Numbered from the stretch's first letter, positions 12,215-24,319 are shown. The stretch is 64,000 bases of DNA from an uncultured delta proteobacterium (GCA_963796685.1 CAWCMR010000025.1:928001-992000); one strand, 5' to 3'. The notes: generated by a model from the sequence alone, not told the origin. Numbers and translations: made by a program.

Positions 12215-14485
12215 TCAGAACGCAAGCCGGACTCTGTTCTTCACCTGCAGGTCTTGTGTTAGCCAGCCGGACGTTTGCATCTGGGTCACGATTTCGTCGT
12301 AGACGGGTGCGGTTCCCTCTGGGTCAGCGATCGTGATAATGAGCGCCATCCGCTGCGGATTCCTGGTCTGGAAGCCACTTCGATGCTGCAGGGAAATATG
12401 GAGCCTCCACGTGTCGCCTTGGATCCCTCTCTTGATCGATCTCCGGTAGACCTTTACGGGCGACCACTTGAATCCGTGCTCGAGTAAGTGATGTTCAAAG
12501 AGCATGTTCACGTCTTCCGGCTCCGGCGGTATCTGCCGCTTATGGTGGCGCTTGCCATCCTTACCGAGATCGTAGGTCCCGAGCGAGACCTCGACATTGG
12601 ACCGACAGTATTCAGCGCCGGCAGCACCTTCGCAGGGTGGGTCATACGCGAGGGTCATCGAGAACTCTCCGCGAACCTTGCCCTTCTTGTCCCGCAGGCT
12701 CGCCGGAATGGGAAACCCTACCTTCTCGAACTCAAGACCTGAAAGCAGGTCGGGTTCGAAGATGAGGGTGGCGGCGGATCTCACGCACGAGAGGACTTCG
12801 GCGACGCCACCAGGCACGCCGAAACCGCGATACTTCATGTCGACCGCAGTCAGCGTACCCTTGGACACCAGTGCGGAATGGATCAGGAGCGCCTTGACCA
12901 GATTCGGCGAAGGTGCGGCTCTTCCGGTTAGTTCGGCGTCGACGGTCGCGTACAGGGACGTCACCAGCGGCGTTGCGAAGCTTGTCCCGATGCTCTCGGC
13001 TACATCGCCGTTCGCATCGAGTGAGAGAACGCCGGTCTGCACACAGCCGAGTCCCGCATCGCAATTCCCGCCATAGTGGGACAGATCCGGTTTTGGCAGG
13101 TACACCGGACCTGGGCCGCGGCGGGAAAAGGGAGACGGTTCCCCGGATCGTACCTTGGAATTCGGGCGGTCGATGTGTGCGACCGAAGCAACGGTGATGG
13201 CGTGAACCGAATCGGCGGGAGCGCAAATGCGGTCGGCCTCTCCGAGATCCTCCGCAGGCCACCCTCGGAGGGGCGGGGTCACATAGTTTCCCGCGGAGAC
13301 GACAAATCGCACGCCATGCTTCGACTGGATCTCGTCGAGCGCCATCGCGAAGTCCGAAAAGGAGTCGTTCTGGCACAACCCCGCCACGCTGTTCACGGAC
13401 AGGTTCCAAACCCGCACCTGCGGGTACTTCGGCACGACCTCTTCTATGATCGTCAGGAGCTGGTCTTCCGAAATGCCGCCCTTCGGAACGGCCACCACGT
13501 CGACGATCCGACAAGATCCGTCGGGGAAGCCTGGGTCACTCTGATTCAGCAGACGACCATGCACGAGCAGCCCAGCAACGAAACTTCCGTGCTCGAGATC
13601 CTGCTCGGATGGATGCACCTCGATCTCATGCGACACAATCCAAGGTGCAAGGAGAGGATCGTGAGCGTTCACCCCGCTGTCAATCAGCCCAACGACCGGA
13701 TAGTCTCTTCCCGGCTCGGGGGCGGGGAAGTCGGATGTGCGAGCAGCGCGGACCCGAGTAGCCGAAGTACGAACCGATTTGTAGATCGGAAATGTGGAGA
13801 CGCTTTGCGTGCCTACGAACCGGGCAAGCCTTCGGATGGCGTCAGGTCCCGCTGGGCCGATGCGGTAGATACGCAGCCCCTCTGCGTAGCGGACCGGTTC
13901 AGGCGAGGCGAGCTGGAGATCCTCCACTTCGGCAAGGAACGCCTTTTCGATTCTTTCGTCGATAGCAGGACTGCTATGCCGAAAGAGCCTCAGCTTGAGA
14001 GGCGAGGGGGTGCGGACCACACGAGCGGTAAGCTCGTCGACGGTTTCGGGCGCCGTGGCCGTGTCCGCTTCATGAGGCAAGATTTGCGCGATTGTGGAGA
14101 TGTCTGCCTGACCCGCCTTCGTGCTGTCCGCACCTATCCTCGCAATCAGTTCATCGATCCGACCGGGACGAAGGCTGATGAGCAACTCCCCGAGATGACC
14201 AACTCCTATGACTGGGCAGGTGTTGTGGAAAAGCTTGGCGGGACGATGGGATTTCGCCAGCGCCTCCCGTTTGAGGACCACCCGACCGACGGCGGGCAGA
14301 CTTGTCTTGTCGGCTACGTGCAATCGGCTGGCAGCATCAGCCAGTTGTCCCGATAGCCTTGCTCGAACTTCTGAAGTGACGGGTCCGAACATCTTGCGTC
14401 CGCCACCGCCTCCCTCGGGACGGAACCAGTCTTCGTTCCTACTCAGGACGACTTTGATGGGTAGTCTCCGTTCGGTCGTAGGCAT
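12215..14485 (-). CDS. ietS: S8 subtilase-family protease, IetS-like
   Basis: Catalytic triad 'IDSG', 'HGSFVA', 'GTSFATP'; 'SAGN'; directly downstream of an AAA ATPase. Confidence 0.88.
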   Translation of the reverse strand: MPTTERRLPIKVVLSRNEDWFRPEGGGGGRKMFGPVTSEVRARLSGQLADAASRLHVADKTSLPAVGRVVLKREALAKSHRPAKLFHNTCPVIGVGHLGELLISLRPGRIDELIARIGADSTKAGQADISTIAQILPHEADTATAPETVDELTARVVRTPSPLKLRLFRHSSPAIDERIEKAFLAEVEDLQLASPEPVRYAEGLRIYRIGPAGPDAIRRLARFVGTQSVSTFPIYKSVRTSATRVRAARTSDFPAPEPGRDYPVVGLIDSGVNAHDPLLAPWIVSHEIEVHPSEQDLEHGSFVAGLLVHGRLLNQSDPGFPDGSCRIVDVVAVPKGGISEDQLLTIIEEVVPKYPQVRVWNLSVNSVAGLCQNDSFSDFAMALDEIQSKHGVRFVVSAGNYVTPPLRGWPAEDLGEADRICAPADSVHAITVASVAHIDRPNSKVRSGEPSPFSRRGPGPVYLPKPDLSHYGGNCDAGLGCVQTGVLSLDANGDVAESIGTSFATPLVTSLYATVDAELTGRAAPSPNLVKALLIHSALVSKGTLTAVDMKYRGFGVPGGVAEVLSCVRSAATLIFEPDLLSGLEFEKVGFPIPASLRDKKGKVRGEFSMTLAYDPPCEGAAGAEYCRSNVEVSLGTYDLGKDGKRHHKRQIPPEPEDVNMLFEHHLLEHGFKWSPVKVYRRSIKRGIQGDTWRLHISLQHRSGFQTRNPQRMALIITIADPEGTAPVYDEIVTQMQTSGWLTQDLQVKNRVRLAF

Positions 14486-14488
14486 TCT

Positions 14489-15625
14489 CTATTCCTCCCG
14501 CAGAAGCTTTGATAGCCGACCCAGGGAAACGCCGAAAACCTCCGATAGACGGCGGTAGGTGAAGAAGTCGGGCGCGAGGCGCCTGGCGGCGGCGACTCTT
14601 GCCTCAAGCGAAACCGAATCCTTCATAAGATCTGGCAATCGATGATTCAAGATCCGGCGAAGCACTTCGGCGGTATCGACGCGAGTCAAGTCGGACAAGA
14701 TCGCACGACGTTTGCTGTCTTCGGCGACCTGTCGGATGTCAGATCCGCTCAGCGTCTCGGAGACGGCCGCAAAGACTCGAATCTCATCGTCCTGTGCGAA
14801 GTCTCCGCAGAAGCGCTGGAACATTGCACGCCGAGCTTCCGGCCCCGGAAGACCGATCTGCAGGCGGAAAGCGAATCTGCGCCAGATCGCCGGATCCAAG
14901 AGGTGTTCGTGGTTGGTGGCCGCCAGAAGAACGGTTTTCGATTCGAGCGCATCGATATTCTGAAGAAGGCTGACCACGACCCGTTTCAGCTCCCCCAACT
15001 CGTTCTTGTCGTCGCGCGCCTTCGCCAGCGCATCGAACTCATCGAGGAACAGTACGCACGGCCGCGCGGTTGCGTGATCGAAAAGAGTGCGGAGGTTCTT
15101 GGCGGTGCTGCCCAGGAAGGAAGAAATCAGTGAGTCCGACCGTGCCGTAAGCAGCGGCAAACCCAGTTGCGACGCCACGTACTTTGCTAGTTCGGTCTTG
15201 CCACAGCCGGGCGGGCCGAAGAGAAGCATCGAAGGTGACACGCCGACACCCTGGCTAACCAGGCGATCGGCCCCGAGGACAAACCGAACGAACTCATGAA
15301 CGGCTGCCGTGACCTCCGGCGCTACGAATACCACCGCGTCTCCCGATGCGAAAAGTTGCTCATCCGCTAGCGCGAGCCGCGACTCCTGATCGACGGGGAT
15401 TCCCGGTGCTGCGATCGAACGGCTGAGCTCAAGCATTCTCGTCTTCGAGCTTTGGAGGGTCCTCTGAAGACGATCGGCGATGGTCTTGTGACCCTCGGCT
15501 GCGAGCTTGGAGGCCAGCAACTCCGTGTAAGATGCCACCTTCTCCCGATCGGCGTTGACCGCACCTTCAACGATCTTGAGCAGTTCGAGAACGTGAGGAA
15601 GCTCCTTATGAACAACTGAAGGCAT
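14489..15625 (-). CDS. ietA: AAA+ ATPase, IetA-like
   Basis: 'GPPGCGKT', 'LFLDEFD', 'GELKRVVVSLLQNID', 'WRRF'; likely start ATG at 15625. Confidence 0.88.
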   Translation of the reverse strand: MPSVVHKELPHVLELLKIVEGAVNADREKVASYTELLASKLAAEGHKTIADRLQRTLQSSKTRMLELSRSIAAPGIPVDQESRLALADEQLFASGDAVVFVAPEVTAAVHEFVRFVLGADRLVSQGVGVSPSMLLFGPPGCGKTELAKYVASQLGLPLLTARSDSLISSFLGSTAKNLRTLFDHATARPCVLFLDEFDALAKARDDKNELGELKRVVVSLLQNIDALESKTVLLAATNHEHLLDPAIWRRFAFRLQIGLPGPEARRAMFQRFCGDFAQDDEIRVFAAVSETLSGSDIRQVAEDSKRRAILSDLTRVDTAEVLRRILNHRLPDLMKDSVSLEARVAAARRLAPDFFTYRRLSEVFGVSLGRLSKLLREE

Positions 15626-15748
15626 GATGTGAACATTATGCCTATGTACGTGAACGCTATCAAGATATCGTGAACGAATGCCGCACAGCTGAGCCTCCAC
15701 GCGTCGTGAAAGTCGAGAACCCGAGCGCGTCGACCCTCGTCGTTCGAG

Positions 15749-15990
15749 GCCGATCCCTTCGGCCGGGGTGAGCGAGCGATTTGGTGACGCCGACCGATCC
15801 GTTCGCTCACCCTGACCGATAGGTTCGGTTGCATTTACCGATAGGTTCGTTCGTCCCGACCGATCGGTTCGCCCACCCCGACCGATCGGTTCGGTGCCGC
15901 TAACCGATGGTTTCGGTGGCGCCAACCGCTCGATTCGGTCCTGGGAACCTATCCTCAAGGTCACCGTCACCGGTCCCAGTGCTTGCCCCA
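15749..15990. repeat. 22-bp-period array with palindromic core ACCGATCGGT(TCG)
   Basis: Cores start at 15793, 15815, 15837, 15859, 15881, 15903 and 15925; degenerate units at 15749, 15771, 15947 and 15969. Confidence 0.85.
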
Positions 15991-16069
15991 CTCCGAAGGT
16001 CGACCCAGGGTGATCGATCCACATCGCCCTGGGGACCTCGTGCGAGGCACCTGCGGTTTGACTGTCCGG

Positions 16070-16552
16070 CTATCTCGCCGCAGCTGCCTGGGGCGCGGGG
16101 GCCGGGGCGGGGGGCCTCGGGCCGCGCGCGAAGAAGTCGAGCAGCGGCTTGAACATGACCAGGATTTCCGGGTCGTGCTTGCCCTGCGCCTTCACCTGAT
16201 CGTTGGTCTTGCGAATCTGTTCCCACGCCTCGGCGTCGAAGAGCAGATTGGCTTGCTTGAGCTTGTTCAAGACGACGTCGAGATCGAGGATCACCTGGTC
16301 GATACCCTCGGCGCGTTTCCCCAAGGCTCGCAGCGACGCCGGCGTTACGCCAGCCGCCGGTGCGAACCTTGCGCCCGACTTCTCGATCGCGTCGGCCGTC
16401 GCATCACAGATGAGCCCAATTCCCCGCGGCGTCTTGGCGATGCGACGAACCTCATCGGGGCTCATATTTCCAGCCTCGGGTGGCGGCGCGAATTCGTCCG
16501 CAATTGAAACCGTTACTGTTCCATGTCGAAGATCAACCATTGGTCCCTCCAT
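16070..16552 (-). CDS. Hypothetical helical protein upstream of the 22-bp array
   Basis: Clean 160-aa ORF with protein-like composition; no family recognised. Confidence 0.8.
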   Translation of the reverse strand: MEGPMVDLRHGTVTVSIADEFAPPPEAGNMSPDEVRRIAKTPRGIGLICDATADAIEKSGARFAPAAGVTPASLRALGKRAEGIDQVILDLDVVLNKLKQANLLFDAEAWEQIRKTNDQVKAQGKHDPEILVMFKPLLDFFARGPRPPAPAPAPQAAAAR

Positions 16553-16656: not shown

Positions 16657-19600
16657 ATGCCCGCCGAGGTTCGTCTGTCGCCAAAGGATCGCCGTACTGT
16701 CCTTGAGCAGCTTTCGCGAGAGCGCCTCGGCGAGCTGAGCACGCGCTTCGAGCTGGACGTCGCGGACCGTCGGTCGACCGACTCTCACATTGATGCGATC
16801 GTGCGCAAGCGCTCGCTGGACTTCCGCGCCGTCCTGGAAGTTCTGCGGCGCGAGGAGCTGCAGGCCGCCTGCGAGGCGCTGGGGCTTGACCGGGGCGGGC
16901 GGGAGAAGGCCGCGCTGATTGGGCGGATTCTCGGCGAAGGGGCCGCGCCAACGGAGGCGACGCCTTCCCCGTCGAGCAGCGAGCCTTCGCCAGTCAGCGC
17001 GCAGAACGAGCGAGGGTTGAAGTCGGCGCTGCGCCGGTTCGTGCTCGACCTGGCCGGTGGGCTGCGCGGGCGGGACGCTGCCACGACGTTCACCTCGCGC
17101 TTGCTTCGCTGCTTCGGCTGGCCCGAGGGGGCACCGCCCGAGGTCACCCTACCGACGTCGCTCGCGGTGGTGGAGAATGGACGGCGCTCGACGCGCGAGG
17201 TGGCGCTGTTCTGGAAGGACCGGCGCGTCCTGGTCGAGGTGGTCAAGCACGACGTGATGCTCGACTTTGCCTGGAAGGACTTGCTGCGCGTCTGCCTGCA
17301 GGTCGATCCGGTGCCCGCAGTATGTGGTGCTGACCAACCAGCGCGACCTCCAGCTCTATGACCTGGGCCGCGACCGCGAGGAGCCCAGGCTTTCGATCGC
17401 GCTCGAAGATCTGCCCAAGTACAGCGAGGCCTTTCCGTTCCTCTCGCCCACCTGGCACCCCGGAACCACGCCGAGGATCATCAACGTCTCGAAGGTGTCG
17501 CGCGAGGTCGCCGAGCTGGTCGCGCGCCTGTACCGCAGCCTGAAAGAGCAGCACCCCAAGCAAGAGCGCGAGGTCGTGCAGTTCACGCTCCAGTGCATCC
17601 TGACCATGTTCGCCGAGGACATTCGCCTGCTGCCCCAGGAGTACTTCACCTCGCTGCTTTACGATGGCGCGCGCAGCGGCGACGTCGAGAAGCGGTTGCG
17701 CGACCTGTTCCGGCTGATGGGCACGCGCGACGTGCCCGGCCAGCGCGCGGTGCCCTTCTTCAACGGGGGGCTGTTCACGCGTCCCGTGACCCTCCCGCTC
17801 GGCGAGGCGCAGCTGGCGGCGCTGATCAAGGCCTCGGAGGCCAACTGGACCTACGTCGACCCGCACATCTTCGGCAGCGTCTTCCAGGGCATCATGAGCG
17901 ACGCCGAACGCCACCAGAGCGGCGCGCACTACACCGCCCACGAGGACATCATGCGCGTGGTGGGGCCCACCATCGTCGAGCCGTGGCGCCAGCGCATTCG
18001 CGAGGCCAAGTCGCTCGAGCCGAGCTGCTGGAGGTGCGCACGGCTCTGCTCAAGTTTCGCGTGCTGGACCCCGCGTGCGGCAGCGGCAACTTCCTGTACG
18101 TTGCCTTCCGCGAGCTGTACCGCCTGGACACCGAGCTGCTGGCCCGCATCCGCGAGTTCCCGTCCACCCAGGCCGAGGGCCGGGCGAAGGTGACCTGGGG
18201 AGTGGGGATCCAGACCATCGAACTTCTTCGGCATCGACATCAACCCCTTCGCCGTCGAGCTGGCCAAGGTGACGCTGAACATCGCGAAGAAGATCGCCTT
18301 CGACGAGCGCAGCGAGCTGGCGGCGCGATCTCGTCGGCCAGATGGAGATGGACGTCGATCCGTCGCTGCCGCTCGACAACCTCGACAAGAACATCGTCTG
18401 CGCGGACGCGCTGTTCACGGACTGGCCGGAGGTGGAGGCGATTGTCGGCAATCCGCCGAATCCTGGGAGACCGTAAAATTCGTGGCGAGCTAGGCGCGGA
18501 CTACATTCGCCGGCTTCAGGAGACGTCGGGATTGGATGGCGTCGTCGATCTCTCTTGCTACTGGTTTCGCCGTGCGCACGATCGCCTGCCAGACGGGCGC
18601 CAGGGCGGGGCTCGTCGGCACCAGTGGAATCCGCGTAGGGAAGGCGCGCGAGGCCTCGCTCGACTACATCGTCGCAAACAGCGGTACCATCACGAATGCG
18701 GTGTCATCGCGCCCCTGGCCCGGTGAGGCCGCCCTCGACGTCTCGATGGTCAACTGGGTGAATGGATTCGCCGATGGTCCGCATCAGCTCATCATCGAGG
18801 ACGAGGTCTTCCTGGTCGCGCGCATTCCAACGCATCTTCAGCTCCACGCCGACGTCAGCGGGACCAGGGACCTTGCGGCCAATGTCACCGGTGCAATGGT
18901 CGGCATAACATTTGCGACCGATGAGTTCACGATCCCACCCACGTCGGATCTTCTTCGTAACGGGGACTTGAAAAGGCGTGGTGTGGTGAAGCCCCTCGCG
19001 ACGGGTGGTGGCATGCTCAAAGGCAGCCTCGCGGTCAACCCGGAATACGTCGTTTACCTTGGCGCTTGCAAGACACAGCCCGAAGCCGCGCAGGTCGGTG
19101 GCCCTGCATATGCCTATCTCGACAAACACCTGCGGCCACACGTGCTGTCAGTGGCTGGGCAGTATGAAGGATGGGATGCACGCTGGTGGCAGCCTTGGCG
19201 TCCACGCCCAGAATTCCTCAGCGTTGCGTCGAAGCTGAATCGGCTGATCATGTGTTCCAAGGTGCTTGGCCGCCCTGTCTTTGCTTTTCTGTCTTCCACG
19301 TTCGCGCCAAACGATACGATGCAAGTCTTTGCCTTCGACGACGACTACAGCTTCGGCATCGTTCAGTCATCGTTGCATTGGGAGTGGATCAAGGCTAAGG
19401 GCGGCAAGGTTCGGGCCGACAAGCGCTACACCAATGAGGTCTGGACTACCTTTCCCTGGCCACAGGAGCCAACCGAAGCCGAAGTCGCGGCCATCGCCAC
19501 CGCCGCGCGAAACCTTCGCCGGGCCCGCGACACGCTCATGAAGGAAAACTCCTGGTCACTGCGCGCGCTCTATCAAGCCGCCGAGATCCCTGGCCCGCAT

Positions 19601-19822
19601 CCGCTCAAGGACGCGCAAGCAGCTCTCGATGAAGCCGTTCAGCGGGCCTACGGGATGCCGGCAGACCAGGAGGCGACGGCGTTCCTGCTCGAGCTGAACC
19701 AGCTCGTGGCCGAGGACGAGGCGGAGGGCAGGAAGGTCCAAGGCCCCGGGGTGCCGAAGGGGCTCGATGCGCGCGACCCGCGCTGGACCAGCGACGATTG
19801 CATCGAGCCGCCCGGCTCGTGA
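16657..19822 (+). CDS. MmeI-like (type IIG/IIL) DNA amino-methyltransferase with TRD; several frameshifts
   Basis: 'VPFFNGGLF', 'NWTYVDPHIFGSVFQ', 'GAHYT', 'VLDPACGSGNFL', 'GNPP', 'FGIVQSSLHWEW', 'TFPWP'; joined from ORFs 16480, 17267, 17593 and 18536. Confidence 0.85.
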
Positions 19823-19832
19823 CGGGAGAAAC

Positions 19833-22800
19833 GTGGCCGAGTCAATCGATGTCCATCCGCTGCTGAGCAAGCTTTGGGACGACAAGAGGAACGGCGCCGC
19901 GGCGGCTGTCCAGGTGCGGAGCTTCCGCCCTGCGTGGTGGCGTTGCGAGCACGGGCATTCGTTCCAGCGCTCGCCGCGCAGCATGCTGAGCGACCCTGCA
20001 TGCCCGGGCTGCCAGCGCGGTCCGGGCACAAGCTCGATCGCCAAGGCGCGACCCGGCCTGGTGCCGCTGTGGCATGCCGAAAAGAACGGAAGCCTGTCGC
20101 CCAGCACCACCGATGTGGCATGCGCGCGGGGCCATCTGGTGGCGCTGCCCGCAGGGGCACGAGTTCCAGCGCTCGCCCCTGCTGATGTTGCGGGATGCAA
20201 GCTGCGCCGTCTGCACGGTCGCCACGACATCCCTGGCGGTGACCAACCCCGCCGTGGCGGCCGAGTGGCACCCGTCCCAGCAACGGCGAGGTCACGCCCG
20301 ACCAGGTTGCCCGCCGACCACGTCATGAACGCCTGGTGGCTGTGCCCCAAGGGCCACGAGTATCAGGCGACTGTCCGGTCGCGCGCCCGGGGCAACCGTA
20401 GCTGCCCGACCTGCTACGGCGGCTGGTCGCTTGAGAACCTCCGAGCCTTCGTCAAGTCGCTCGCTTTCGCATGCCGGCGCGTTCAACCCGAGCGAGCGAT
20501 TCGCCCTGGCGATGCAAGCGGGCGTGTTCGCGGACAAGGACTCGCGCCCCTTCGTCATGGCCATCTCCACGGGGCGCTTCCCGCGCGAGGAGCTGGAGAA
20601 GTTCGCCGAGGGCAAGCCGTCCCTGGTCGATGAATTTGCCGCTGACAAGGCGCTGACCCTCGAAATCGTCGACGGGCGGCAGCCCGCGAAAACCGCCACG
20701 CCGGTCGATCCCTACGCCCTGCCGGCAGCGCCCGAGCCCCTCGACGAAGGTGAGCGCGTCGATGTGGACGTCAGCCGCGAGGTTGACTCTGCGGCCGTCG
20801 CCACCGCCGCAGCGCGGCGCCGATGATGACATGCCGCTGGTCAAGACAGCGGACGCGCTCGGCGGCGCTCGACAGCGTCCTGGTGGCCAACGCCGATGCC
20901 GAGACGGTGAAGTTCCTGCTCGACAGCGCGAAGGCCAAGCTGTGGCGTCACGCCTACGTCGATGCCAAGGAGGCCCGCGAGCAAGCCGCTGGCTTCAAGG
21001 GCGACGTCTATTCGGGCCTCGTGCGCGACAGGTTTCTTGCCGAGTTCGACGAGGCCGACGCGCTGGCGCCGCCCGCGGGCTATGCCTTCCGTCCCACGCC
21101 CGACGCCCCGGTGACGCCACCGAATCTGATGCAGCGGCGGGTGGCGGTGTGCGTGCGCGCCGAACGCCGGTTCGGCAACTGGTCCGGGATGGGGGCGGGC
21201 AAGACCCTCAGCGCCATCATCGGCACGCGCGTCGTCGATGCCAGGCTGACGGTGATCTGCTGTCCCAATGCCGTGGTCGACAACTGGGAGCGCGAGATTG
21301 CGGGGGCATTTCCCGCCTCGGACGTGGCCAAGAAGACCTGGCACCCCGAGTGGAAGGATCCGCTCGGGACCACGCCGCGCTACCTGGTGCTCAACTACGA
21401 GCAGTTCCAGCAACCCAACTCAGAGGCGGAGCTGGTCGGGTTTCTCGATCGCAACGTCATCGACTTCGTCGTCGTCGACGAGATCCACTTCGCCAAGCAG
21501 CGCGAGGCCGGCGCGGAGATGTGCAAGCGCAAGCGACTGGTGCAGGGTCTTATCCTGGAGGCGGGCAAGAAGAACGGCGGATCTGTGCGTGCTCGGGATG
21601 TCGGGAACGCCGGTCATCAACACCCTGCAAGAGGGCAAGAGCCTGGTCGAGATGATCACCGGCCATCGCCACGACGATCTGGAAACGCGTGCCACGGTTC
21701 AGAACTGCATGCGGCTCTATCAGCGCCTGGTCACGCTCGGGACGCGCTGGAAGCCCGACTACAAGATCCAGCTCGACGGTCGACAAGAAGGAGATCGACT
21801 GCGAGCACGCCCTGGACGAGATCCGGGTCGTGGGTCGGGGGACGGTGCTTGAGCTAGAGCAGGTGCTGACCCGGCTGCGCCTACCGACCATCCTCGCGAA
21901 CCTTTCGCCCGGCGAGAAGGTCGTCATCTACACCCACTACGTGGACGGCATCGCGGGCACGCTGCGCGACGCGCATCCACACCGCAGGCTATCGTGTCGG
22001 GCATGCTGACCGGCGGGACCGACGACGTCGATCTCAAGGAGTTCCTGAAGCCCGACGGCAACATTGATGTCCTCATCGCCTCGAGTCGCATCGGCACGGG
22101 CGTCAACGGCCTGCAATACGTCTGCAACAAGCTGATCATCAACTCGCTGCCGTGGACGAACGCCGAGTACGAGCAGCTCATCGGGCGGCTGTACCGGCAG
22201 GGCAGCCGCTTTGACCAGGTGCGGGTCATCATCCCGGTGACCTTCGCGATGGTGAACGGTGAACGCTGGTCCTACTGCGAGTCGCAAGCTGCACCGGCTC
22301 GAGTACAAGAAATCGATCGCCGACGCCGCCGTCGACGGGGTCGTGCCCGAGGGCAACCTGCGCACGCCCGCGCAGGCGCAGCAGGACATCATGGATTGGC
22401 TGGCGCGGCTGGAGAGCGGCAAGATGAGCCGAGGTCGCAGCGGCCGGTCATCAAGATCCCGCTCTCGGGCGAGCCCAACGAAGTCGAGCGGCGGGTCGCG
22501 CGCTACGGCGACTTCTCGAAGATGAACAACCGTTGGTACGCGTCGGGCAGCGAGTCGACCCACGCCAGGCTGGCCAGCAACCCCGAGGAGTGGGCCCACT
22601 ACCACACGATGTACCGGCAGATTCGAGAGTCCTGGCCTGTGGTGCCCTACAAGGAGGAGATCCGCTGGCTGTCCGAGCGGGAGGGGCACGTCATCGGCGA
22701 CTTCGGGTGTGGCGAGGCGCTGATCGCGCGAAGCCGGCCAAAGACCGCCATCAGGTCCACAGCTTCGACCACGTGGCGGTGGGCGGCAGCGTGGTCGCCT

Positions 22801-23112
22801 GCGACATCGCGCACGTGCCGCTCGAAGACGAGCTCCCTGGACGTCGCGATCTTTTGCCTCTCGCTCATGGGCGCGAACTTCACGGACTACGTGCGCGAGG
22901 CGCATCGCTGCCTTCGCCTCGACGGCTGGCTACACATCTGGGAGCCTGCCAGCTACTTCGACGACGTCACGAAGTTCTGCTCGCAGCTCGGTCGCCTGGG
23001 CTTCGACGTGGTGGAACCGCAGACCGAGGGTGCCTTTGTCCGGATCTACGCTGCGCGGAATGCCAAGAAGGTGGATCCGACAATCGTCCTGCCATTCCGA
23101 GGGCATGGTTAG
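19833..23112 (+). CDS. Fusion of three Zn-ribbons, an SF2 (SNF2-like) helicase and an Rrp8/nucleomethylin-like SAM methyltransferase; several frameshifts
   Basis: WWxCxxGH...CxxC three times; 'GMGAGKT', 'DEIH', 'SGTP', 'QLIGRLYRQG'; 'IGDFGCGEA', 'VHSFD', 'CDIAHVPL', 'FCLSLMGANF'. Confidence 0.8.
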
Positions 23113-23327
23113 TTACCTCGCGCGGTCCGGTCTGCACTGCCTTCCACGCTGCCGTCCCGGAAGGTGCAAAGCGCGAACTGGATCGCATCTTGGATGCGAA
23201 GCTGGTGCTCCACGGCCCATCGCATGAGGGCCTCGAACAGCTTGCGATCGAGGTGCAGGCCGTCGAGCACGACGAAGCGGCCACACGAGGAGACCTTGGC
23301 GGGCATCATGTCGGGATCTATCGGCAA
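23109..23327 (-). CDS. Small hypothetical protein
   Basis: 72-aa ORF with plausible composition. Confidence 0.35.
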   Translation of the reverse strand: MPIDPDMMPAKVSSCGRFVVLDGLHLDRKLFEALMRWAVEHQLRIQDAIQFALCTFRDGSVEGSADRTARGN

Positions 23328-23453: not shown

Positions 23454-23604
23454 GGGAAGGTTTGGAAACCCTCCCAGTTCCGCCACCGGGCCGAAGGCCC
23501 GGATCCTTCAGTCATGAAACGTGGCAGCCCCTCACCCGCCTCGCTGCGCTCGGCGACCTCTCCCCGCTTCGCGGGGCGAGGTGGTTTCAGGTCAGGGTTT
23601 CCAT
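23454..23604 (+). repeat. ~150-bp REP-family element, second copy of 1323-1483
   Basis: Bounded by GGAAACCCT...AGGGTTTCC; internal CCCCTCACCC...CCTCTCCCC...GGGGCGAGG hairpin. Confidence 0.85.
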
Positions 23605-23613
23605 CTCCATGTC

Positions 23614-24182
23614 GCGTGAAGTACGCCTACGAGCTGACCCGCAAGCGCAACAGCAAGAAGAAGATGCTGACCCTCGTCCACAAGTGCAACGTCCTGACCC
23701 ACGCCGGCGACTTGTGGGTGCGCGTGCACAAGGAGATCGGCGACAAGCTCTATCCCGAGATCAAGCAGGACTACAACCACGTCGACGCCTGCACCATGTG
23801 GTTCGTCAAGCAGCCCGAGTACTACGACGTCATCGTCACCGAGAACCTCTTCGGCGACATCATCACCGACCTCGCCGCCATCATCCAAGGCGGCCTTGGC
23901 ATCGCCGCCGGCGGCAACATCAACCCCGAAGGCGTCTCCATGTTCGAGCCCATGGGCGGCAGCGCCCCCAAGTACACCGGCAAGAACGTCATCAACCCGC
24001 TCGCCACCATCTGCGCCGGCGGCATGATGATGGACACCCTCGGCGAGCCCGCCATCGCCAAGGCCGTCGACCAAGCCGTCCACGACGCCCTCGCCTCAGG
24101 CAAAATCAAGAGCCTCTCCGCCGGCAAGATGGGCATGGGCACCCGCGAGGTCGGGGACATGATCGCGAAGTTGGTGAGTTAG
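23614..24182 (+). pseudogene. leuB: Duplicated 3' half of leuB (matches 11513-12081)
   Basis: 569-bp near-identical direct repeat; differences mostly synonymous and 3'-biased; lacks the 5' half. Confidence 0.95.
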
Positions 24183-24223: not shown

Positions 24224-24277
24224 GCCTCGCCCCGCGAAGCGGGGAGAGCCCGACGCGCGAAGCGCGGCCGGTGAGGG
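24224..24277 (-). repeat. Inverted copy of the CCCCTCACC...GGGGCGAGG palindromic repeat
   Basis: Reverse complement matches 23527-23582. Confidence 0.8.
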
Positions 24278-24319
24278 GCAACTTGCACACACCGCCGACA
24301 CACAACCCGCGTTCACTGG

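What the first reader, a model, noticed from the sequence alone, without database searches (positions are those of the whole stretch)
16657..23112. Candidate new defence system: MmeI-like MTase plus Zn-ribbon/SF2-helicase/Rrp8-like m1A-methyltransferase fusion
Seen: two co-oriented genes 10 bp apart. The second (~1090 aa after repairing frameshifts) has three WWxCxxGH..CxxC ribbons, full SF2 motifs and a C-terminal domain (~22500-23112): DFSKMNNRWY...EEWAHYHTMYRQIRESWPVVP...IGDFGCGEA...VHSFD...CDIAHVPL...FCLSLMGANFTDYVREAHRCL...LHIWE. Known: this motif order matches eukaryotic Rrp8/nucleomethylin, an rRNA m1A methyltransferase, and m1A blocks Watson-Crick pairing. No intact nuclease is evident in either gene. 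Inference: a BREX/DISARM-like logic in which the DNA MTase marks self and the helicase delivers a toxic N1-adenine methylation to invader DNA or host RNA.
Basis: partly seen in the sequence, partly recalled or inferred. Interest (0 to 1): 0.88.

Follow-up and report, generated by a model that had tools for sequence, protein, structure and literature searches.

The report
MmeI-like methylase with helicase-Rrp8 methylase partner
Two neighbouring genes, a DNA methylase that has lost its cutting site and a motor protein fused to a methylase otherwise known from eukaryotic ribosome making, form a conserved and unstudied bacterial cassette that looks like a nuclease-free immune system, although the copy in this genome is riddled with frameshifts.

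Summary
Window 16657-19822 (+) encodes an MmeI-family methyltransferase/recognition protein. Ten bases on, 19833-23112 (+) encodes three DUF4379 zinc ribbons, a Snf2-like ATPase and a C-terminal Rrp8/nucleomethylin-type methyltransferase. The only PDB sequence match is 2ZFU (E 1.4e-43), which is also the top Foldseek hit (E 6.8e-19).

Both genes are broken as assembled, with 6 and 14-15 frame-breaking indels. These are almost all small insertions, 8 of 11 single ones being C. There are no in-frame stops, and dN/dS is 0.116, as for intact relatives. I therefore favour consensus error or very recent damage (about 70%). No reads could be obtained.

Intact ~1090-aa homologues are common. In Polyangia the MmeI-like gene lies directly upstream in 34 of 51 testable loci. 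All 25 orthologues aligned lack MmeI's catalytic Asp70 but keep NPPF, and the recognition domain is the most variable part. Sub-lineages add AlkB, a McrBC-like pair or a small convergent gene.

Best reading: a nuclease-free, BREX/DISARM/YeeABC-like immune module. Killing by methylation is unproven but still possible. It is a new variant of a known kind.

The parts
16657..19822 (+). MmeI-family gene. It has a SAP-like N-terminus, an MmeI_N-like domain without the PD-ExK aspartate, a helical spacer, an N6-adenine methyltransferase, a target recognition domain and a C-terminal domain. As assembled it has 6 frame breaks, near 17311, 18017, 18217, 18323, 18459 and 18595.
   Evidence: Pfam. PADLOC REase_MTase_IIG, E 2.2e-87, and DrmMI, E 4.8e-44. 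Frameshift-aware alignment to the L004 orthologue: 73.5% identity over 1039 codons. PDB match to MmeI 5HR4, E 1.7e-40.
19833..23112 (+). Fusion gene of about 1087 codons: three DUF4379 zinc ribbons, a Snf2-like SF2 ATPase and an Rrp8-like methyltransferase. It has 14-15 frame breaks as assembled.
   Evidence: Identity to intact P0002 is 91.9% when read through the breaks.
19890..20470 (+). Three treble-clef zinc ribbons (DUF4379). Coordinates are approximate.
   Evidence: Pfam DUF4379, E 4.8e-22. Three stretches in homologue P0121. Motifs visible.
21100..22300 (+). Snf2-like ATPase core with GAGKT, DEIH, SGTPVIN and QxxGRxxRQG. Coordinates are approximate.
   Evidence: Invariant columns in alignment A2. 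PDB sequence match to 1Z63, E 3.2e-6. All 50 best Foldseek matches are Snf2-family ATPases, but the model is poor, pLDDT 61.5.
22507..23076 (+). Rrp8/nucleomethylin-type SAM methyltransferase domain (Methyltransf_8). Frame breaks fall near 22726-22738 and 22831.
   Evidence: (G000:C25:950507-951076).
23112..23303 (-). Small convergent ORF of about 64 aa, intact, possibly ribbon-helix-helix. It is conserved directly downstream of the fusion in the window's sub-clade.
   Evidence: The motif is visible in 19 of 93 loci (16 distinct sequences). Pfam gives only sub-threshold RHH hits, E 0.054-0.08, for the L010 copy and none for the window copy.
12215..16024 (-). Intact IetS (12215-14485) and IetA (14489-16024) defence pair next to the cassette. 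This is context, not part of the cassette.
   Evidence: PADLOC IetS, E 4.6e-254, profile 3-748 of 749. IetA, E 3.7e-132, profile 3-370 of 374. Pfam Peptidase_S8 and AAA.

Best explanation
This is a conserved, mobile, nuclease-free module that tells self from foreign DNA. It is of the same kind as the nuclease-less MmeI-homologue-plus-helicase systems (YeeA/DnmA-YeeB-YeeC, DISARM class 1, BREX).

Proposed mechanism, all steps inferred:
1. Gene 1 recognises an asymmetric DNA site through its fast-evolving recognition domain and marks host sites with N6-methyladenine.
2. Gene 2 is the ATP-driven partner. Its zinc ribbons and Snf2-like motor engage DNA.
3. Its Rrp8-type methyltransferase sits where related systems carry a nuclease. 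It acts on DNA that lacks the self mark.
4. The most likely action is a Watson-Crick-face methyl mark (m1A-like). That mark either blocks replication itself or, in some lineages, is read by a McrBC-like nuclease or erased by AlkB.

Shown here: the domain identities, loss of the nuclease aspartate, conserved adjacency, recognition-domain variability, patchy distribution and the accessory genes.

The copy in this genome cannot make either protein as assembled. I judge the roughly 20 indels to be consensus errors or very recent damage (about 70%) rather than long decay.
For: Domain identities:
- Gene 1 has all five MmeI domains.
- Gene 2's C-terminus matches only 2ZFU in the PDB by sequence (E 1.4e-43). 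By fold, 2ZFU scores E 6.8e-19 with TM 0.73/0.82, and the next match is SAMTOR at 1.5e-7.
- The SAM motif DFGCGEA and 60 other columns are invariant in 29 sequences.
- The motor is Snf2-like.

Nuclease loss: the MmeI Asp70 equivalent is A, S, T or P in 25 of 25 orthologues and the Lys82 position is never K. D70/E80/K82 are the catalytic residues according to PMC2731913.

Methylase motifs I and IV (NPPF) are kept in 25 of 25.

Adjacency, counted by hand over 51 genome-contig loci with at least 500 nt upstream:
- 45 carry the MmeI-like gene upstream on the same strand.
- 34 of those lie within 60 nt.
- No other gene family recurs in more than 4 of the 60 loci.

RM-like behaviour:
- The recognition domain has mean pairwise identity 0.46, against 0.69-0.70 for the methylase, spacer and C-terminal domains.
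- Defence 'hitchhikers' sit between the two genes in some loci: a YhcG nuclease, RhuM and ABC-3C components.
- IetAS lies next door in the window.
- Methyltransf_8 is found in 13 of 301 genomes of the class, 0 of 7 other genomes of the genus and 0 of 14 controls.

Accessory genes:
- An AlkB-family gene lies directly downstream in L021, L079 and L147. DNA homology between these loci ends at its 3' end.
- A McrB-like AAA_5 protein lies 2-18 nt downstream in most of 11 loci (L030 is the exception). It matches PDB McrB at E 3.6e-10. In L049 it is followed by a DUF2357/PDDEXK_7-like gene.

Frameshifts:
- dN/dS between the window and L065 is 0.116. Six comparisons of intact genes give 0.095-0.110.
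- There are 0 stops in 1087 codons.
- Elsewhere in the genome there is 1 frame change in 17.7 kb over 13 places.
Against: - No experiment exists for any member of the family.
- The closest studied relative, DnmA/YeeA with YeeB and YeeC, showed no restriction in transformation assays (PMC7261158, passages read).
- The helicase-methylase often occurs without an MmeI-like partner. This is so in three Planctomycete loci, where it is fused to Sigma70_r4 HTH extensions, two other Myxococcota classes, and plasmids of Crinalium and Rhodococcus. It is therefore not dependent on gene 1 everywhere and not intrinsically lethal.
- The AlkB link rests on three related loci, which may be one evolutionary event. 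The AlkB gene is interrupted in two of them.
- Across the class, AlkB presence tracks taxonomy. It is in 9 of the 13 Methyltransf_8-positive genomes against 141 of 301 overall, and G000 has none.
- McrBC-like genes commonly sit beside restriction systems anyway (recalled, from no call).
- Known Rrp8 enzymes methylate rRNA, not DNA (recalled).
- The window copy is broken, and the breaks are confined to these two genes. A generic assembly-error model does not predict that.
Confidence: 0.5

Rival explanations
1. The cassette is an epigenetic or regulatory DNA-methylation module with no immune role. Gene 1 is a site-specific m6A methylase used for gene regulation, as proposed for DnmA in Bacillus subtilis. 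The helicase-methylase remodels or co-methylates DNA, for example on the strand that MmeI-type enzymes leave unmarked.
For: DnmA/YeeA is necessary and sufficient for GACGAG m6A. It affects promoters, and no restriction was detected (PMC7261158). No nuclease is present in the window's cassette. MmeI enzymes mark only one strand (PMC2731913).
Against: Several features are typical of immune genes rather than regulators: a fast-evolving recognition domain, patchy distribution with variable flanks, defence genes embedded in or next to the cassette, and McrBC-like and AlkB additions. The second methylase is of the Rrp8 type, not a DNA amino-methylase. No (D/N)PPY-type motif is seen in alignment A1.
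Confidence: 0.17
2. The Rrp8-like domain keeps the family's RNA target. On sensing foreign DNA, the protein methylates rRNA or tRNA (m1A) and shuts down translation, which would be abortive infection. Alternatively it is a ribosome-modifying enzyme unrelated to defence.
For: The only characterised relatives, yeast Rrp8 and human nucleomethylin, make m1A in large-subunit rRNA (recalled, from no call). The Rrp8 signature is strongly conserved. The enzyme can exist without gene 1.
Against: The motor is Snf2-like, a family of double-strand DNA translocases (the model is poor). The N-terminal modules are DNA-binding types: zinc ribbons, Sigma70_r4 and RNA_pol_A_CTD-like. The tight coupling is to a DNA methylase. 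The domain is in only 13 of 301 genomes of the class, which is too patchy for housekeeping.
Confidence: 0.1
3. The helicase-methylase is a mobile-element establishment or anti-restriction factor. It methylates incoming DNA processively to shield it. The Polyangia pairing with an MmeI-like gene is secondary.
For: Full-length lone copies sit on a mobilizable cyanobacterial plasmid and on two Rhodococcus plasmids. One of these is beside FtsK/SpoIIIE and SSB genes. P1 DarB is a precedent for a methylase-helicase anti-restriction protein (recalled).
Against: No full-length copy was found in 50,697 phage records; only the zinc ribbons matched, in 3 records. Most copies are chromosomal. In Polyangia the gene is locked to an MmeI-like partner with a variable recognition domain.
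Confidence: 0.08
4. On the state of this copy: the frameshifts are real and the window holds a dead relic of the cassette.
For: About 20 frame breaks lie within 5.5 kb, while the adjacent IetAS genes are intact. The region is in the top 0.1% of 7154 genome windows for reading-phase switches. Elsewhere there is 1 frame change in 17.7 kb. One break alters the catalytic NPPF motif. Decayed copies exist in other genomes: G097 has two TAG stops, and G146 has a truncated fusion with a broken AlkB.
Against: There are no in-frame stops. dN/dS is 0.116, equal to that of intact pairs. Excess dN against outgroups is only about 0.001-0.009. Thirteen of 14 events in the fusion are insertions, and 8 of 11 single-base ones are C. 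This is opposite to the deletion bias of bacterial pseudogenes (recalled) and typical of a consensus artefact, for example low or mixed-strain coverage of a variable island.
Confidence: 0.3

Closest known systems
YeeA (DnmA)-YeeB-YeeC of Bacillus subtilis and the 'MmeI homologues that lack the endonuclease motif' (Morgan et al. 2009, PMC2731913; Nye et al. 2020, PMC7261158)
   Same: An MmeI-family methylase and recognition protein without the PD-ExK motif, always flanked by an SF2 helicase gene. It was proposed to supply specificity and self-marking to a separate motor/effector.
   Different: There the effector is a separate putative GIY-YIG nuclease (YeeC). Here no such gene exists, and the helicase carries zinc ribbons and an Rrp8-type methyltransferase.
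MmeI (Type IIL restriction-modification enzyme, PDB 5HR4)
   Same: The same five-domain layout. Sequence match E 1.7e-40 over residues 64-574 and 764-884 of MmeI. Methylase motifs I and IV are kept.
   Different: The catalytic Asp70 and Lys82 equivalents are lost in 25 of 25 orthologues. There is an extra SAP-like N-terminus. It is never a stand-alone gene.
DISARM class 1 (DrmMI methylase plus DrmD Snf2 helicase, DrmA, DrmB, DrmC)
   Same: An MmeI-like adenine methylase (PADLOC DrmMI, E 4.8e-44 on the recognition part) together with a Snf2-like helicase. DrmD is the best PADLOC and NCBIfam hit for the motor.
   Different: The DrmD score is far below the curated cut-off (33.7 bits against 610). 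No DrmA, DrmB or DrmC-like gene is conserved nearby. The Rrp8-like domain is absent from DISARM.
BREX PglX/BrxX
   Same: A nuclease-less MmeI-like methylase used for self-marking in a system that blocks phage without an obvious nuclease.
   Different: NCBIfam BREX methylase models score 26-37 bits against cut-offs of 400-900. No PglZ, BrxC or BrxL partners are conserved.
Rrp8 / nucleomethylin (eukaryotic rRNA m1A methyltransferase, PDB 2ZFU)
   Same: The methyltransferase fold and sequence signature.
   Different: It is bacterial, fused to a Snf2-like motor and zinc ribbons, encoded in a defence-like cassette, and its substrate is unknown.
Type III and Type ISP restriction enzymes; Snf2-nuclease defence fusions (e.g. 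PMC11232893, seen as listing and abstract only)
   Same: An SF2 motor coupled to an effector domain and to a methylase/recognition component.
   Different: The effector position holds a methyltransferase rather than a nuclease.

Membership tests
MmeI family (Type IIL/IIG) | Domain order MmeI_N - helical spacer - N6A methylase - TRD - C-terminal domain | tested here: met
   Pfam hits on the pieces of gene 1. PADLOC REase_MTase_IIG. PDB 5HR4, E 1.7e-40.
MmeI family (Type IIL/IIG) | PD-ExK catalytic residues (MmeI D70, E80, K82) | tested here: not met
   The D70 equivalent is A, S, T or P in 25 of 25 orthologues and in the window. The K82 position is never K. The E80 equivalent is mostly kept. 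Residue roles come from PMC2731913.
MmeI family (Type IIL/IIG) | Adenine methylase motifs I (DPACGSGNF) and IV (NPPF) | tested here: met
   Kept in 25 of 25 orthologues. In the window, motif I is intact but motif IV is hit by a frame break and its aromatic codon is altered.
MmeI family (Type IIL/IIG) | Single-polypeptide system with no conserved partner gene | tested here: not met
   The helicase-methylase gene lies directly downstream in 34 of 51 testable loci and within the flank in 45 of 51.
Rrp8 / Methyltransf_8 (PF05148) | Profile match above the curated cut-off | tested here: met
   110 bits against 27 for the broken window copy. Other copies score 145-186 bits.
Rrp8 / Methyltransf_8 (PF05148) | Fold and SAM-binding signature of nucleomethylin | tested here: met
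   AlphaFold model pLDDT 80.9. Foldseek 2zfu_B, E 6.8e-19, TM 0.73/0.82. The residues of DFGCGEA (D104, G106-A110) and SFD (S124-D126) are invariant and F105 is at least 90% conserved.
Rrp8 / Methyltransf_8 (PF05148) | N1-adenine methylation of large-subunit rRNA | not testable with these tools
   This needs biochemistry. The activity of Rrp8 is recalled, not taken from a call.
Swi2/Snf2 ATPases | SF2 motifs with a Snf2-type motif III, and Snf2-like lobes | tested here: inconclusive
   GAGKT, DEIH, SGTPVIN and QxxGRxxRQG are invariant. PF00176 scores below cut-off on the window piece (15.8 against 24.9) but matches at E<=0.001 in 23 of 39 representatives. PDB 1Z63, E 3.2e-6. All 50 top Foldseek hits are Snf2-family, but the TM-scores are 0.20-0.35 and the model has pLDDT 61.5.
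DISARM | DrmA, DrmB and DrmC together with DrmMI and DrmD | tested here: not met
   No further gene family is conserved in more than 4 of 60 loci. DrmD scores 33.7 bits against a cut-off of 610.
BREX | PglX together with PglZ, BrxC and BrxL | tested here: not met
   BREX methylase models score far below their cut-offs. No conserved partners were found. The flanks were compared by clustering, not by HMM scan.
Type III / Type ISP restriction-modification | A nuclease domain on the helicase polypeptide | tested here: not met
   No nuclease family was found on the fusion or its homologues.

The most novel reading that the evidence does not exclude
This would be restriction by methylation. A Snf2 motor carries an Rrp8-type (m1A-class) methyltransferase along DNA that lacks the host's m6A mark. 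It writes base-pair-blocking methyl lesions instead of cutting. In sister lineages the same mark is read by a McrBC-like nuclease ('mark, then cut') or removed from self by a cassette-encoded AlkB. It would be the first immune effector that disables invader DNA by methylating it. It would also place a eukaryotic ribosome-biogenesis enzyme family in bacterial immunity.
Probability: 0.25. Interest if true: 0.9.

Novelty: new variant of a known kind. Interest (0 to 1): 0.68.

Why it matters
Nuclease-less MmeI homologues beside helicases were flagged in 2009 as common and unstudied. BREX and DISARM still lack a clear killing step. This cassette gives a minimal, two-gene, nuclease-free version in which the effector position is filled by a recognisable enzyme with a predictable and testable chemistry.

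The helicase-Rrp8 fusion is widespread: 2710 representatives at E<=0.001, and 37 of the 39 long ones examined are helicase fusions. I found no paper on it.

If the methylase is the effector, three things would follow. It would add a new principle to phage defence. It would explain why AlkB or McrBC-like genes ride with some cassettes. It would give a new tool, motor-coupled base methylation.

If the cassette is only regulatory, it is still the first context for bacterial Rrp8 homologues.

Tried and rejected
- Sequencing reads. The look-up of sequencing runs was busy three times. When it answered, no run was listed. Whether the frameshifts are real stays open.
- Complex prediction. I sent the MmeI-like N-terminal part (341 aa) with the pre-helicase and helicase part (641 aa). 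It returned no answer, score 0.00. This counts neither for nor against binding.
- Quadruplet decoding or programmed frameshifting. The four-letter words at the 11 single-base insertions differ (GCGC x3, CTCG x2, and six others), so there is no single recoding signal. Rejected.
- Other frameshift-dense regions. The C5:40-46 kb hot spot is only a run of short genes. C11:287-317 kb (GC 71%) was not resolved.
- A second copy in the genome. None was found; there is only a distant MmeI-like gene on C16.
- Flanking direct repeats around the cassette. None was convincing.
- AlkB co-occurrence across the class. It follows taxonomy and gives no independent signal.
- Names for short Methyltransf_8 hits. 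These are mostly fragments of helicase fusions, with few names.
- Atlas search of the McrB-like N-terminus. The score was 0.80, which is chance level.
- The dN/dS row 'window vs L072' (w 1.955) came from a frame offset in my reference coordinates and was discarded.
- MmeI-like adjacency was not tabulated for the 79 metagenome loci. The counts come from the 60 genome-contig loci only.
- Literature. I found no paper on a bacterial Rrp8-like helicase fusion with these terms: Methyltransf_8/helicase/defense, DUF4379, PF05148/Methyltransf_8, Rrp8/bacterial/helicase/horizontal, 1-methyladenine/anti-phage/methyltransferase/helicase. Supplementary files were not consulted.
Full report
WHAT IS THERE

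The + strand of window 16.4-23.1 kb is split over many reading frames. Pfam places MmeI_N, MmeI_hel, MmeI_Mtase, MmeI_TRD and MmeI_C on the pieces between 17258 and 19822. On the pieces between 19698 and 23112 it places DUF4379 zinc ribbons, weak ResIII/SNF2, Helicase_C and Methyltransf_8 (PF05148; E 1.9e-31, 110 bits against a cut-off of 27).

I aligned intact relatives to the window with a frameshift-aware method.
- Gene 1 spans 16657-19813 plus its stop. It has 1039 matched codons and 73.5% identity to the L004 orthologue.
- Gene 2 spans 19833-23109 plus its stop. It has 1071 matched codons and 91.9% identity to P0002.
- The gap between them is 10 bp.

THE FRAMESHIFTS

Gene 1 has 6 frame breaks and gene 2 has 15 by protein-guided alignment.

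I then aligned the DNA to the closest relative, metagenome locus L065 (88% nt identity). This resolves gene 2 into 11 single-base insertions (8 C, 1 G, 2 A), two 2-base insertions and one 5-base deletion. There is also one in-frame 3-base deletion. One break falls exactly on motif IV (NPPF) of gene 1 and alters the aromatic codon.

There are no in-frame stops. dN/dS between the window and L065 is 0.116 (dS 0.383, dN 0.044, 1087 codons). Six comparisons of L065 with intact orthologues give 0.095-0.110. The window's dN to outgroups exceeds that of L065 by only 0.001-0.009. One row, window vs L072, was invalid and is dropped.

The breaks are local.
- The neighbouring IetA and IetS genes match their PADLOC profiles end to end.
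- In 13 other genome places with a good protein reference (17.7 kb, nine of them copies of one IS-like gene) there is one frame change.
- In a GC3-phase Viterbi scan, the region lies at the 99.9th percentile of 7154 windows of 6.5 kb. Of the other hot spots, C5 is only a run of short genes. C11 (GC 71%) is unresolved.

The four-letter words at the insertions are not uniform, so recoding is not supported.

A gene that had drifted long enough to collect about 20 indels should also show stops and excess replacement changes. Bacterial pseudogenes are also biased to deletions (recalled). I therefore put about 70% on consensus error, for example a strain-variable island with low or mixed coverage, or very recent damage. 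I put about 30% on real decay. No public run was listed for the stretch, so this stays open.

THE FAMILY IS REAL AND WIDESPREAD

A search with the C-terminal piece among longer proteins gave 762 hits. The best 120 are mostly 1040-1120 aa, with shorter entries of 862-1013 aa among them. They carry PF05148 and PF00271, mostly also PF14311, with or without PF00176/PF04851. The names include Labilithrix, Polyangiaceae and Myxococcota.

A full HMMER scan with the methyltransferase domain found 2710 representatives at E<=0.001 and 228 at E<=1e-30. I took all 39 proteins of at least 870 aa among the first 80 ranked.
- 39 carry Methyltransf_8.
- 37 carry Helicase_C.
- 23 carry SNF2-rel_dom.
- 20 carry DUF4379.
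- 6 carry Sigma70_r4.

Several shorter hits are fragments of such fusions.

THE METHYLTRANSFERASE DOMAIN

A profile of 29 domains matches a single PDB sequence, 2ZFU, the methyltransferase domain of human nucleomethylin/RRP8 (E 1.4e-43).

An AlphaFold model (pLDDT 80.9) has 2ZFU as its best fold match: E 6.8e-19, TM 0.73/0.82, 32% identity. The next match, SAMTOR, is eleven orders of magnitude weaker.

The residues of the SAM motif DFGCGEA, SFD and the LxxMGxN stretch are invariant or at least 90% conserved. The domain is thus specifically Rrp8-like.

THE MOTOR

GAGKT, DEIH, SGTPVIN and QxxGRxxRQG are invariant. By sequence the best PDB match is the Sulfolobus Snf2/Rad54 core (E 3.2e-6), followed by XPB.

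The AlphaFold model of the core is poor (pLDDT 61.5). Even so, all 50 best Foldseek matches are Snf2-family ATPases, at low TM-scores.

PADLOC and NCBIfam give only DrmD-type hits far below their cut-offs.

I read it as a Snf2-like DNA translocase, with moderate confidence.

GENE 1 IS A NUCLEASE-LESS MMEI HOMOLOGUE

It aligns to MmeI (5HR4, E 1.7e-40). At MmeI Asp70 all 25 aligned orthologues, and the window, have A, S, T or P. The Lys82 position is never Lys. Glu80 is mostly kept. According to Morgan et al. 2009, D70, E80 and K82 are the conserved catalytic residues (PMC2731913, passages).

Methylase motifs I and IV (NPPF) are kept in 25 of 25.

The recognition domain is the most variable part of the conserved body. 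Its mean pairwise identity is 0.46, with a maximum of 0.76. The methylase, spacer and C-terminal domains have 0.69-0.70. This is the pattern expected of a specificity subunit that keeps changing its target.

CONSERVED PAIRING AND CONTEXT

Of the 60 genome-contig loci fetched with P0002, 51 have at least 500 nt upstream. I counted the following by hand.
- 45 carry the MmeI-like gene upstream on the same strand.
- 34 of those lie within 60 nt.
- The six without it are three Planctomycete loci and three partial matches.

Where the two genes are separated, the inserts are a YhcG/DUF1016 PD-(D/E)xK nuclease (L017), RhuM (L057), ABC-3C components (L039, L010) or a DUF433/HTH gene (L003). These are the kinds of passengers found inside restriction and BREX operons (recalled).

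No other gene family recurs in more than 4 loci.

Methyltransf_8 is patchy in whole genomes.
- 13 of 301 genomes of the class.
- 0 of 7 other genomes of the genus.
- 2 of 46 of the family.
- 5 of 401 across the phylum sample, counting G000.
- 0 of 14 control genomes.

In the window the cassette abuts an intact IetAS system.

THE HELICASE-METHYLASE WITHOUT GENE 1

- In three Planctomycete loci it is a 1404-1802-aa protein. Two of the three have an N-terminal Sigma70_r4 HTH, and one also has an RNA_pol_A_CTD-like module. There is no MmeI-like neighbour. In L050 an EVE-HNH gene lies upstream.
- In two other Myxococcota classes it has extra zinc ribbons and stands alone.
- Full-length copies lie on plasmids of Crinalium epipsammum and two Rhodococcus strains. 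One is beside FtsK/SpoIIIE and SSB genes.
- Phage records match only the zinc ribbons.

THIRD GENES

Among 93 loci with at least 700 nt downstream (some are duplicates between collections), three kinds of third gene recur.

(a) A small convergent ORF with a conserved RF(V/I)V...LH(I/L/V)DR...QDA(I/V)Q motif is visible in 19 loci (16 distinct sequences). It is intact in the window at 23112-23303 (-). Only sub-threshold ribbon-helix-helix hits support a regulator reading.

(b) An AlkB-family 2OG-Fe(II) oxygenase lies about 160 nt downstream on the same strand in L021, L079 and L147. DNA homology among these loci (75-84%) ends at its 3' end, so it travels with the cassette. It is intact in L079 and interrupted in the other two. 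In L147 the fusion is truncated.

(c) A McrB-like AAA_5 protein occurs in 11 loci, in two BLAST clusters. It starts 2-18 nt downstream in most of them; in L030 it is on the opposite strand, 1.25 kb away. Four were checked by Pfam. It matches PDB McrB at E 3.6e-10. In L049 it is followed by a gene that the Atlas places with DUF2357/PDDEXK_7 (McrC-like) clusters at score 0.96.

Both AlkB and McrBC deal with methylated bases (recalled). This is the main circumstantial support for an unusual methyl mark made by the Rrp8-like domain. Both links could still be island neighbourhood effects or single evolutionary events.

COMPARISON WITH WHAT IS KNOWN

Morgan et al. 2009 described MmeI homologues that lack the endonuclease motif and are invariably flanked by a helicase and a GIY-YIG protein (YeeA, YeeB, YeeC). 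They proposed that the MmeI-like subunit gives specificity and self-modification to a separate motor and nuclease.

Nye et al. 2020 showed that YeeA/DnmA is an active m6A methylase at GACGAG. They found no restriction in transformation assays.

The present cassette is of this kind, but the nuclease gene is absent and an Rrp8-type methylase is fused to the motor. It fails the membership tests for BREX, DISARM, Type III/ISP and catalytically active MmeI enzymes.

NCBIfam release 20 and PADLOC 2.0 have no specific model for either protein. Five literature searches found nothing on a bacterial Rrp8-like helicase fusion.

VERDICT

The best reading (confidence 0.5) is a nuclease-free, methylation-based immune module. 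Gene 1 marks self and recognises sites. The Snf2-Rrp8 fusion is the motor and effector.

The bold version, killing or flagging invader DNA by m1A-type methylation, gets about 0.25.

The rivals are a regulatory methylation module (0.17), an RNA target (0.10) and an anti-restriction role (0.08).

The window's own copy is non-functional as assembled. I lean to assembly error.

Noticed in passing
window 12215-16024 (-): An intact IetS (subtilase, 756 aa) and IetA (AAA ATPase, 511 aa) defence pair. It matches the PADLOC profiles end to end and lies directly beside the cassette.
   Followed up: partly
window 23613-24182 (+), 23527-23581 and 24225-24279: Only the C-terminal half of a 3-isopropylmalate dehydrogenase-like gene is present (profile positions 165-345 of 347). 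It is bracketed by a 55-nt inverted repeat that is 87% complementary. It may be a gene remnant between repeat elements.
   Followed up: partly
window 16070-16552 (-): A 160-aa ORF between IetA and the MmeI-like gene. It has no Pfam, PADLOC or NCBIfam match.
   Followed up: partly
L046 3421-9986: The MmeI-like gene of this MAG is interrupted by two insertions of about 1.3 and 2 kb, while the downstream fusion is full length. This argues that the fusion is not lethal without gene 1, unless the insertions silence it.
   Followed up: no
L050 6700-7518 (+): In a Planctomycete locus an EVE-HNH gene lies directly upstream of the lone 1802-aa helicase-methylase. EVE domains are a kind of reader of modified bases (recalled).
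   Followed up: no
G000 C11:287000-317000: A 30-kb stretch with GC 71% and the densest reading-phase switching in the genome. It may be contamination (the genome is rated 6.5% contaminated) or another badly assembled region.
   Followed up: partly
G000 C6, C8, C10, C16 and C25 (five copies): Nine intact copies of one roughly 430-aa gene that is 55.6% identical to an ORF of L089, presumably an insertion sequence.
   Followed up: no
L145 1202-2599 (G000 C5:40202-41599): A 465-aa protein with a CAP12/Pycsar-effector TIR domain (E 1.8e-26). This may be another defence gene elsewhere in the genome.
   Followed up: no
L021 5211-11753: The MmeI-like gene and the fusion lie in one 2181-codon open frame, because the end of the MmeI-like gene shifts frame. 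This is either a frameshift artefact or a natural read-through fusion.
   Followed up: no
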